DNA of 13,062 nt, taken from a virus. Its lineage: Duplodnaviria; Heunggongvirae; Uroviricota; Caudoviricetes. The notes beneath the pieces are model-generated. The model did not search any database and was not told the DNA's origin. It worked only from the letters and a program-made list of their open reading frames with translations. The DNA lies in the IMG/VR virus record IMGVR_UViG_2529292921_000005, positions 1 through 13,062 of that record; one strand, given 5' to 3'. The translations under genes were made by a program, and so were the position numbers. Shown one piece after another: positions 8,460 through 9,215 of the stretch; positions within the stretch are counted from its first letter, which is position 1; each line of letters begins with the position of its first letter.

Positions 8460-9215
8460 ATGACACAGACAGAATCAGAGATTCTGGCGCACGCCCGGCG
8501 ATGTGCGCCAGCGGAGTCGTGCGGCTTCGTGGTGAGAACGCCGGAAGGGGAAAGATATTTTCCCTGCGTGAATATCTCCGGTGAGCCGGAGGCGTATTTC
8601 CGGATGTCGCCGGAGGACTGGCTGCGGGCAGAGATGCAGGGTGAGATTGTGGCGCTGGTCCACAGCCACCCCGGTGGTCTGCCCTGGCTGAGTGAGGCTG
8701 ACAGGCGGCTGCAGGTGCAGAGCGATTTGCCTTGGTGGCTGGTCTGCCGGGGTGAGATTCATAAATTCCGCTGTGTGCCGCATCTTACCGGGCGGCGCTT
8801 TGAGCACGGGGTGACGGACTGTTACACGCTGTTCCGGGATGCTTATCATCTGGCGGGGATTGAGATGCCGGACTTTCATCGTGAGGATGACTGGTGGCGT
8901 AACGGCCAGAATCTCTATCTGGATAATCTGGAGGCCACAGGGCTGTATCAGGTGCCGTTGTCAGCGGCGCAGCCGGGCGATGTGCTGCTGTGCTGTTTTG
9001 GTTCATCGGTGCCGAATCATGCCGCCATTTACTGCGGCGACGGTGAGCTGTTGCACCATATTCCTGAACAACTGAGTAAACGAGAGAGGTACACCGACAA
9101 ATGGCAGCGACGCACACACTCCCTCTGGCGTCACCGGGCATGGCACGCATCTGCCTTTACGGGGATTTACAACGATTTGGTCGCCGCATCGACCTCGTGT
9201 AAAAACGGGGGCTGA
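8460..9215 (+). CDS. K: tail tip assembly protein K (JAMM/MPN metalloprotease-like N-domain plus NlpC/P60-like C-domain)
   Basis: 251-aa ORF from ATG 8460; complete JAMM signature E(19)...H68-S-H70-x7-S78-x2-D81; GVTDCYTLF Cys and NHAAIY His typical of NlpC/P60. The last ~5 codons (SCKNGG*) are probably altered by the same 1-nt change that breaks I. Confidence 0.85.
   Translation: MTQTESEILAHARRCAPAESCGFVVRTPEGERYFPCVNISGEPEAYFRMSPEDWLRAEMQGEIVALVHSHPGGLPWLSEADRRLQVQSDLPWWLVCRGEIHKFRCVPHLTGRRFEHGVTDCYTLFRDAYHLAGIEMPDFHREDDWWRNGQNLYLDNLEATGLYQVPLSAAQPGDVLLCCFGSSVPNHAAIYCGDGELLHHIPEQLSKRERYTDKWQRRTHSLWRHRAWHASAFTGIYNDLVAASTSCKNGG

What the first reader, a model, noticed from the sequence alone, without database searches (positions are those of the whole stretch)
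8460..8610. K reading frame starts immediately after L and includes the full JAMM motif
The ORF beginning at ATG 8460 contains the upstream Glu (PAESCGFVV) together with HSHx7Sx2D, which is a complete JAMM/MPN metalloprotease signature, followed by an NlpC/P60-type Cys/His domain. From memory, the reference lambda annotation starts K at an internal Met about 48 codons downstream, which would omit the Glu. This window supports the longer, two-domain protein as the biologically meaningful product. K start lacks a Shine-Dalgarno and probably depends on coupling to L translation.
Basis: partly seen in the sequence, partly recalled or inferred. Interest (0 to 1): 0.35.

Follow-up and report, generated by a model that had tools for sequence, protein, structure and literature searches.

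The report
Full-length lambda tail gene K
This is the ordinary full-length tail-assembly gene K of a lambda-like prophage; its first 48 codons are part of the protein, and the shorter K in the classic lambda reference comes from one G missing from that 1982 sequence.

Summary
ATG 8460 lies 4 nt after the L stop. It opens a 251-aa frame with a complete JAMM signature (E19, H68-S69-H70, S78, D81) followed by an NlpC/P60 domain (C121, H187, H199).

The first 48 codons are real coding sequence:
- Across 88 homologues at 32-58% identity, E19 is kept in 87, and G22 and N38 in all 88.
- They form helix 1 and strands 1-2 of a confidently predicted MPN fold.
- Their variation among 69 close alleles is concentrated at third codon positions.

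The lambda reference (J02459/NC_001416) starts K at Met49 because its sequence lacks one G after position 14266, which puts the upstream ATG out of frame. It was not an annotator's choice. Every independently sequenced lambda or relative I checked has that G.

The long two-domain protein is already the standard annotation, as in NCBI's PGAP annotation of E. coli genomes and in the recent lambda record PV340536. The JAB + NlpC/P60 architecture was published in 2003-2006.

The lack of a Shine-Dalgarno sequence is confirmed. Translational coupling to L is inferred from this and from the conserved tight L-K junction.

Verdict: already known, low interest.

The parts
8453..8455 (+). Stop codon (TAA) of tail-tip gene L
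   Evidence: Read directly from the sequence. It aligns with the lambda L stop at 14125-14127.
8460..9215 (+). Gene K (tail tip assembly protein K). It is 251 aa as written in this contig; the family norm is 247 aa.
   Evidence: Translation. It is 98% identical over 245 aa to K of a resequenced lambda. Pfam finds Prok-JAB plus NLPC_P60. It matches phrog_30 at 8e-164.
8460..8603 (+). The 48 N-terminal codons that are missing from the lambda reference K. They encode helix 1 and strands 1-2 of the MPN/JAB fold and the catalytic Glu19 (8514-8516).
   Evidence: In 88 diverse homologues E19 is kept in 87, G22 and N38 in 88, P17 in 81, C21 in 83 and F47 in 84. AF2 places H3-15, E21-27 and E30-36 here at pLDDT about 97. 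Variable sites by codon position are 6/2/18.
8588..8594 (+). GGAGGCG. GGAGG (8588-8592) is an SD-like motif 11 nt before Met49. G8594 is the base absent from J02459/NC_001416 (after reference position 14266).
   Evidence: Alignment with lambda. Duplex energy -9.5 kcal/mol. Comparison of lambda records.
8604..8606 (+). Met49, equivalent to the annotated start of K in the lambda reference (14276)
   Evidence: Met is present in only 12 of 88 diverse homologues, with Ile in 57. It is lost in 2 of 79 close alleles.
8661..8702 (+). Zinc-site part of the JAMM motif, H68-S69-H70-x7-S78-x2-D81
   Evidence: H68, H70 and D81 are invariant in 88 of 88; S69 is kept in 84 and S78 in 83.
8790..9131 (+). NlpC/P60 (C40) papain-like peptidase domain, residues 111-224. 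C121 is at 8820-8822; H187 and H199 complete the triad.
   Evidence: Pfam PF00877 at 6e-13. C121, H187 and H199 are each kept in 87 of 88. Foldseek matches MepS/Spr, LytE and Acd33800.
9101..9215 (+). The K/I overlap. The I start ATG is at 9101. One T is missing near 9194, which changes the K C-terminus from ...STFV* to ...STSCKNGG* and breaks the I frame.
Evidence: Alignment with lambda.

Best explanation
Window 8460-9215 is gene K of a lambda-type prophage. Translation starts at ATG 8460, 4 nt after the L stop. This start has no Shine-Dalgarno sequence. It is most likely reached by ribosomes that have just terminated on L (termination-reinitiation coupling; inferred).

The product is a two-domain protein of about 247 aa:
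- an N-terminal JAMM/MPN+ zinc metalloprotease domain (E19, H68, H70, S78, D81);
- a C-terminal NlpC/P60 cysteine peptidase domain (C121, H187, H199).

The first 48 residues are an integral part of the JAB fold and carry its general-base Glu.

K is an assembly factor that does not end up in the virion. The published prediction is that it processes the ubiquitin-like N-terminal domain of the neighbouring protein I during tail-tip assembly. That step is inferred from the literature and is not tested here.

The 199-aa K of the lambda reference is an artefact of one G missing after J02459 position 14266. This is most probably a 1982 sequencing error. It splits the gene into a 76-aa ORF and a 199-aa ORF.
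For: Domains and motif:
- Pfam matches to Prok-JAB and NLPC_P60.
- PDB sequence hit 2KKS, aligned from residue 6.

Structure:
- The AF2 model has pLDDT 96.9 and pTM 0.91, with H3-15, E21-27 and E30-36 inside the first 48 residues.
- Foldseek matches P. furiosus JAMM1 (5LD9, TMt 0.67, rmsd 2.6), AMSH-LP, Rpn11 and CSN5 for the N half, and MepS, LytE and related enzymes for the C half.

Conservation:
- In 88 representatives at 32-58% identity, E19 is kept in 87 and G22 and N38 in 88.
- Mean conservation of residues 1-48 is 0.41, against 0.45 for the rest of the JAB domain.
- Homologues start within a few residues of the position aligned with residue 1.
- In 19 diverse IMG/VR loci the Glu is residue 16-21 from a start that overlaps the L stop or lies 2-5 nt after it in most of them.
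- 75 of 80 close relatives give a 247-aa ORF from TAA(A)TCCCATG.
- Variation in the first 144 nt falls mainly at third codon positions (6/2/18).

The lambda reference:
- There is a 1-nt gap in the alignment.
- Its ATG at 14133 opens a 76-aa ORF identical to the window N-terminus for 44 residues.
- Five independently sequenced lambda-type records have the G.
- LC730321 is independent: it differs from the reference at 14 sites in 37.5 kb, including this G.
- Only 4 of 124 phage records share the reference version.
- No E. coli genome record among 4,067 with a match reaches 100% identity to the reference 121-mer.
- The reference 22-mer occurs in 0 IMG/VR contigs, and the version with the G in at least 120.
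- The two reference ORFs each hit half of Prok-JAB below threshold (22.6 and 23.3 bits against a cut-off of 25). The corrected 247-aa protein scores 52.3 bits.

Annotation and literature:
- PGAP and PV340536 annotate the 744-nt gene.
- The JAMM motif in lambda K is listed in PMC300881.
- The JAB + NlpC/P60 architecture and the K-I prediction are in PMC1779556.
- gpK is absent from virions by mass spectrometry, and only gpI 135-223 is resolved there (PMC10721106).
Against: - There is no direct evidence on the protein N-terminus.
- Met49 has a strong SD-like GGAGG (-9.5 kcal/mol) and is kept in 77 of 79 close alleles. Internal initiation in the lambda clade is therefore possible as an additional event.
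- Coupling to L is inferred only from the geometry of the junction. In this contig L is frameshifted at about 7864, so if that gap is real the coupling would be lost here.
- OR974322 carries Sam7 and lacks the G. It looks like a reference-guided consensus, but a real private deletion in the cI857 Sam7 stock is not formally excluded.
- Neither peptidase activity of K has been demonstrated in anything I could read.
Confidence: 0.9

Rival explanations
1. In the lambda clade the functional product, or a second nested product, starts at Met49 (8604) using the GGAGG at 8588-8592. This would give a 199-aa protein made of the NlpC/P60 domain plus a remnant of the JAB domain, as the reference annotation has it.
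For: - The duplex with the anti-SD is -9.5 kcal/mol, against +0.7 for ATG 8460.
- Met49 is present in 77 of 79 close alleles, and GGAGG is kept in most of them.
- Automatic gene callers pick this start although the upstream frame is open.
- Clusters whose representative is 199 aa hold thousands of member sequences.
Against: - Met49 is Ile in 57 and Met in only 12 of 88 diverse homologues.
- Two close alleles have Ile or Leu at this position.
- The 11-nt spacing is longer than optimal (established knowledge).
- The upstream 48 codons are conserved as protein and show third-position variation.
- A product from Met49 would lack helix 1, strands 1-2 and the catalytic Glu of the MPN fold.
- GGAGG is also simply the coding sequence for P-E-A.
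Confidence: 0.1
2. The lambda reference is correct for the stock that was sequenced. On this reading lambda cI857 ind1 Sam7 really carries a 1-nt deletion in K and lives with a split K gene, and this is not a sequencing error.
For: - OR974322 carries the Sam7 change (45352 G>A) and lacks the G.
- Laboratory lambda is known to carry another real frameshift, in stf. The corresponding +C at 20836 is present in LC730321.
Against: - OR974322 is otherwise almost base-for-base the reference, with reference coordinates. It lacks the cI857 and ind1 changes, which fits a reference-guided consensus that ignores insertions.
- OR474059 is the reference sequence with a replaced segment.
- DE3, lambda imm434, lambda from MG1655, KT232076, LC730321 and the laboratory strain J53 all have the G.
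- The reference version occurs in no IMG/VR contig and in no complete E. coli genome.
- K is an essential tail gene (established knowledge), and the shift would destroy its conserved JAB domain.
Confidence: 0.1
3. K starts further upstream at TTG 8418, inside the end of L. This is the first start codon of the open frame that the ORF listing reports.
For: The frame is open from 8418, giving 265 aa.
Against: - There is no Shine-Dalgarno sequence (-1.7 kcal/mol).
- In diverse homologues the Glu sits 16-21 residues from the start. It would be residue 33 from TTG 8418.
- 75 of 80 relatives begin MTQTE/MTETE at the ATG after the L stop.
Confidence: 0.01

Closest known systems
Bacteriophage lambda tail tip assembly protein K (gpK; TAPK), as annotated in PV340536 (34915-35658, 247 aa) and by PGAP as 'C40 family peptidase'
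   Same: 98% identical over 245 residues. Same position between L and I, upstream of J. Same start a few nt after the L stop. Same 3' overlap with I.
   Different: The window has a 4-nt spacer between L and K instead of 5. Its C-terminus is altered and 4 residues longer because one T is missing near 9194.
Lambda reference K (J02459 AAA96551 / NC_001416 NP_040598, 199 aa, 14276-14875)
   Same: Same gene. Residues 49-245 of the window protein correspond to it.
   Different: The reference lacks the first 48 residues because one G is absent after position 14266. It retains H-S-H-x7-S-x2-D but not the Glu, and its Prok-JAB match falls below Pfam's threshold.
JAMM/MPN+ isopeptidases (AfJAMM, P. furiosus JAMM1 5LD9, Rpn11, CSN5, AMSH-LP; Pfam Prok-JAB PF14464)
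   Same: Full E-x(n)-H-S-H-x7-S-x2-D motif, and a predicted fold that matches 5LD9 (TMt 0.67, rmsd 2.6).
   Different: It is fused to an NlpC/P60 domain and sits in a phage tail operon. The substrate and the activity are untested.
NlpC/P60 (C40) peptidases such as E. coli MepS/Spr and B. subtilis LytE
   Same: Conserved Cys-His-His triad and a matching fold.
   Different: There is no signal peptide or cell-wall-binding module. The proposed role is processing of a phage protein rather than of peptidoglycan (PMC1779556), and this is unproven.

Membership tests
JAMM/MPN+ metalloprotease (Prok-JAB, PF14464) | Motif E-x(n)-H-S/T-H-x7-S-x2-D | tested here: met
   E19, H68, S69, H70, S78 and D81 are present. 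They are conserved in 83-88 of 88 homologues.
JAMM/MPN+ metalloprotease (Prok-JAB, PF14464) | Profile match above the curated threshold over the whole domain | tested here: met
   53.4 bits against a cut-off of 25, covering profile positions 3-113 of 114.
JAMM/MPN+ metalloprotease (Prok-JAB, PF14464) | MPN fold | tested here: met
   AF2 model at pLDDT 96.9. Foldseek matches 5LD9, 2KKS, 2ZNR, 4O8X and CSN5 with probability 1.00.
JAMM/MPN+ metalloprotease (Prok-JAB, PF14464) | Zinc binding and (iso)peptidase activity | not testable with these tools
   This needs biochemistry. No published assay of gpK was found in the papers I could read.
NlpC/P60 (C40) peptidase, PF00877 | Profile match above threshold and a Cys-His-His/polar triad | tested here: met
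   49.1 bits against a cut-off of 23, covering profile positions 1-105 of 105. C121, H187 and H199 are each kept in 87 of 88.
NlpC/P60 (C40) peptidase, PF00877 | Papain-like fold | tested here: met
   Foldseek matches MepS (8XUP), Spr (2K1G), LytE (8I2E) and 9UBF, with TMt 0.55-0.69.
Lambda-type tail tip assembly protein K | Gene order H-M-L-K-I-J, with K starting at the L stop and overlapping I | tested here: met
   The junction is conserved in close relatives and in distant ones.
Lambda-type tail tip assembly protein K | High sequence identity to lambda gpK | tested here: met
   240 of 245 residues identical to K of PV340536.
Lambda-type tail tip assembly protein K | Required for tail assembly but absent from the virion | not testable with these tools
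   From the literature only: PMC10721106 and PMC12617516.
Translationally coupled gene pair | Stop and start within a few nt, and no independent ribosome-binding site | tested here: met
   4-nt spacer, and anti-SD duplex of +0.7 kcal/mol.
Translationally coupled gene pair | Downstream translation depends on upstream translation | not testable with these tools
   This needs a premature stop in L, or a reporter fusion.

The most novel reading that the evidence does not exclude
In the lambda clade only, K could yield two nested in-frame products. One would be the full 247-aa JAB + NlpC/P60 protein, made at a low level by coupling to L. The other would be a 199-aa form starting at Met49, driven by the internal GGAGG. 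This would resemble the C/Nu3 and S107/S105 pairs of lambda, and the short form might act as a JAB-less regulator or partner.
Probability: 0.1. Interest if true: 0.35.

Novelty: already known. Interest (0 to 1): 0.15.

Why it matters
For this window it matters little. It is a correctly readable, ordinary K gene.

The practical value lies in curation. The most cited phage reference (J02459/NC_001416, protein NP_040598) still carries a truncated K that lacks the catalytic Glu and a third of the JAB domain. Recent structural reviews still analyse a 199-aa gpK (PMC7291167).

Anyone who plans biochemistry on gpK, for example to test the long-standing prediction that it processes the ubiquitin-like domain of gpI, should clone from the ATG after L (reference position 14133) and expect 247 aa.

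Gene callers that weight the Shine-Dalgarno sequence also truncate this family systematically.

Tried and rejected
- The search for related loci with the diverse alignment failed, because no stretch was conserved enough to search with. I used single distant proteins instead.
- Casjens & Hendrix 2015 and Liu et al. 2013 (lambda ribosome profiling) are not held in the library.
- Full-text searches for reference position 14266, and for reports of a K correction, found nothing relevant. The GraphMap paper and the lambda mutation-rate preprint do not list such a variant in their main text. I therefore cannot say whether the missing G has been pointed out in print.
- I took the two records that share the reference version as possible independent confirmation. 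I rejected them. OR474059 is the reference with a replaced segment, and OR974322 looks like a reference-guided consensus.
- I considered and rejected TTG 8418 as the start.
- The 199-aa protein clusters looked at first like evidence for a natural short form. In the one I inspected the upstream frame is open, so it is a gene-caller choice.

Full report
**What is in the window**

The window is a 13,062-base IMG/VR viral fragment, estimated 26% complete. It carries the lambda-type tail genes H, M, L, K, I and J.

The L stop TAA is at 8453-8455. After the spacer TCCC, an ATG at 8460 opens a frame that runs to TGA 9213-9215 and encodes 251 aa.

The protein has three relevant sequence features:
- PAESCGFVV at residues 17-25, with Glu19.
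- HSHPGGLPWLSEAD at residues 68-81.
- A Cys/His peptidase signature (C121, H187, H199).

Pfam confirms Prok-JAB over residues 3-105 (2.7e-14, 53.4 bits) and NLPC_P60 over residues 111-224 (6e-13).

**Are the first 48 codons part of the protein?**

Four independent lines of evidence say yes.

1. Distant homologues. HMMER against 1.84 billion representatives found 2,795 relatives. I aligned 88 of them, at 32-58% identity and 222-281 aa.
   - E19 is kept in 87, G22 and N38 in 88, P17 in 81, C21 in 83 and F47 in 84.
   - Mean conservation of residues 1-48 is 0.41, against 0.45 for the rest of the JAB domain.
   - Nearly all of them start within a few residues of the position aligned with residue 1.
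   - I selected near-full-length hits. The few shorter hits at low identity were left out.
2. Structure.
   - AlphaFold2 with that alignment gives pLDDT 96.9 and pTM 0.91.
   - Helix 3-15 and strands 21-27 and 30-36 fall within the first 48 residues.
   - Foldseek matches the N half to JAMM enzymes (P. furiosus JAMM1 5LD9 at TMt 0.67 and rmsd 2.6; AMSH-LP; Rpn11; CSN5). It matches the C half to NlpC/P60 enzymes (MepS/Spr, LytE).
   - The PDB sequence hit 2KKS aligns from residue 6.
   - A protein starting at Met49 would lack three core elements and the catalytic Glu.
3. Close relatives.
   - 75 of 80 IMG/VR loci give a 247-aa ORF from TAA(A)TCCCATG.
   - Among 69 distinct alleles, variable sites in the first 144 nt fall 6/2/18 by codon position. 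The rest of the gene shows the same pattern.
4. Distant loci.
   - In L093-L111 the Glu is residue 16-21 from the likely start.
   - In most of them that start overlaps the upstream L-type ORF's stop or lies 2-5 nt after it.

**The lambda reference**

This was not a choice between two starts in one frame. The alignment shows GGAGGCGTATTTCCG in the window and GGAGGC-TATTTCCG in the reference (window G8594, after reference 14266).

In the reference, the ATG after L (14133) opens a 76-aa ORF. Its first 44 residues equal the window's N-terminus, and then it runs out of frame. That ORF hits Prok-JAB positions 3-41 and the 199-aa K hits positions 63-112. Both are below threshold, while the 247-aa protein of a resequenced lambda scores 52.3 bits over positions 3-112. 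That is the signature of a gene split by a frameshift.

Is the missing G real?
- Only 4 of 124 phage records match the reference 121-mer exactly. All others need one inserted base.
- Five records read base by base have the G: lambda from an MG1655 lysogen (PV340536), Lambda_AGU (LC730321), KT232076, lambda imm434 and DE3.
- LC730321 is clearly independent. It differs from NC_001416 at 14 sites in 37.5 kb, including a +C at 20836 that mends stf, as in Ur-lambda.
- In 4,067 matching records of complete E. coli genomes, the best matches are 99.2% over 122 nt. None is 100%.
- The reference 22-mer occurs in 0 IMG/VR contigs, and the version with the G in at least 120.
- Of the two other records that share the reference version, OR474059 is the reference with a replaced segment. 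OR974322 is almost the reference plus Sam7, and is probably a reference-guided consensus.

I therefore rate a sequencing error in the 1982 sequence at about 85-90%. A private mutation of the sequenced stock is the remaining possibility.

**How the start works**

ATG 8460 has no Shine-Dalgarno sequence. Its best duplex with the 16S rRNA 3' end is +0.7 kcal/mol, while H, M and L in the same window give -11.6, -10.8 and -7.2.

With a 4-nt gap to the L stop and a junction that stays tight across distant relatives, termination-reinitiation coupling is the natural reading. It is an inference.

In this contig L is split by a missing T at about 7864. If the gap is real, coupling would fail here.

Met49 is preceded by GGAGG at 8588-8592 (-9.5 kcal/mol, 11-nt spacing). 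This explains why automatic gene callers and several GenBank records pick the short form although the long frame is open. It also leaves a small chance of a second, nested product in the lambda clade.

Against a conserved internal start:
- Met49 is Ile in 57 and Met in only 12 of 88 homologues.
- Two close alleles have Ile or Leu at this position.

**What K does**

This part rests on the literature.
- The JAMM motif of lambda K was listed in 2003 (PMC300881).
- The JAB + NlpC/P60 architecture was set out in 2003-2006, together with the prediction that K releases the ubiquitin-like N-terminal domain of protein I (PMC1779556).
- gpK is needed for tail assembly but is not found in virions. Only residues 135-223 of gpI are resolved in the tail tip (PMC10721106 and PMC12617516). 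This is compatible with processing but does not prove it.
- I found no assay of either peptidase activity.

**Novelty**

The long two-domain K is the standard annotation in PGAP (744 nt) and in the 2025 lambda record PV340536. Protein clusters of 247 aa hold thousands of member sequences. The finding is correct but already known.

The residual value is a curation point. The reference lambda record still carries a truncated K, and reviews still analyse 199 residues (PMC7291167).

I could not find a printed statement of the missing G in the held library. The two most likely sources are not held.

Noticed in passing
window 7860-7865 (T-run), ORFs 7758-7961 and 7790-8455: Gene L is split by the loss of one T relative to lambda (reference position 13536). 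If the gap is real, ribosomes would stop about 500 nt before the K start, and coupling to K would be lost in this contig.
   Followed up: partly
window ~9194, K/I overlap 9101-9215: One T is missing (CCTTCG to CCTCG). This changes the K C-terminus from ...STFV* to ...STSCKNGG* and breaks the long I frame from ATG 9101. The lambda GTG at the K stop is GTA here.
   Followed up: partly
L114 (LC730321) position 20836 vs NC_001416: Lambda_AGU has an extra C at the site of the stf (orf-401/orf-314) frameshift. It therefore looks like Ur-lambda, with an intact side tail fibre gene. It differs from the reference at 14 sites in the first 37.5 kb.
   Followed up: no
L012 (Logan SRR11074165 contig) 1057-1800; also OM418626, EU078592 and KT232076: Gene callers and several GenBank records annotate K as 199 or 211 aa although the frame is open from the ATG after L. 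The SD-like GGAGG before Met49 seems to mislead start prediction across this family.
   Followed up: partly
L003/L005 (PV340536, KT232076) against NC_001416, gene I: The start of gene I is annotated inconsistently. The reference and PGAP give 215-223 aa, starting about 100 nt inside K. PV340536, KT232076 and the Logan call give 182-190 aa, starting at the K stop (GTGA overlap). Which start is used affects whether the full ubiquitin-like domain is encoded.
   Followed up: no
L236 (OR974322), whole record: A 'chicken cloacal swab' lambda isolate is nearly base-identical to J02459 and carries the Sam7 amber (45352 G>A). This suggests laboratory or spike-in lambda DNA rather than an environmental phage.
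   Followed up: partly
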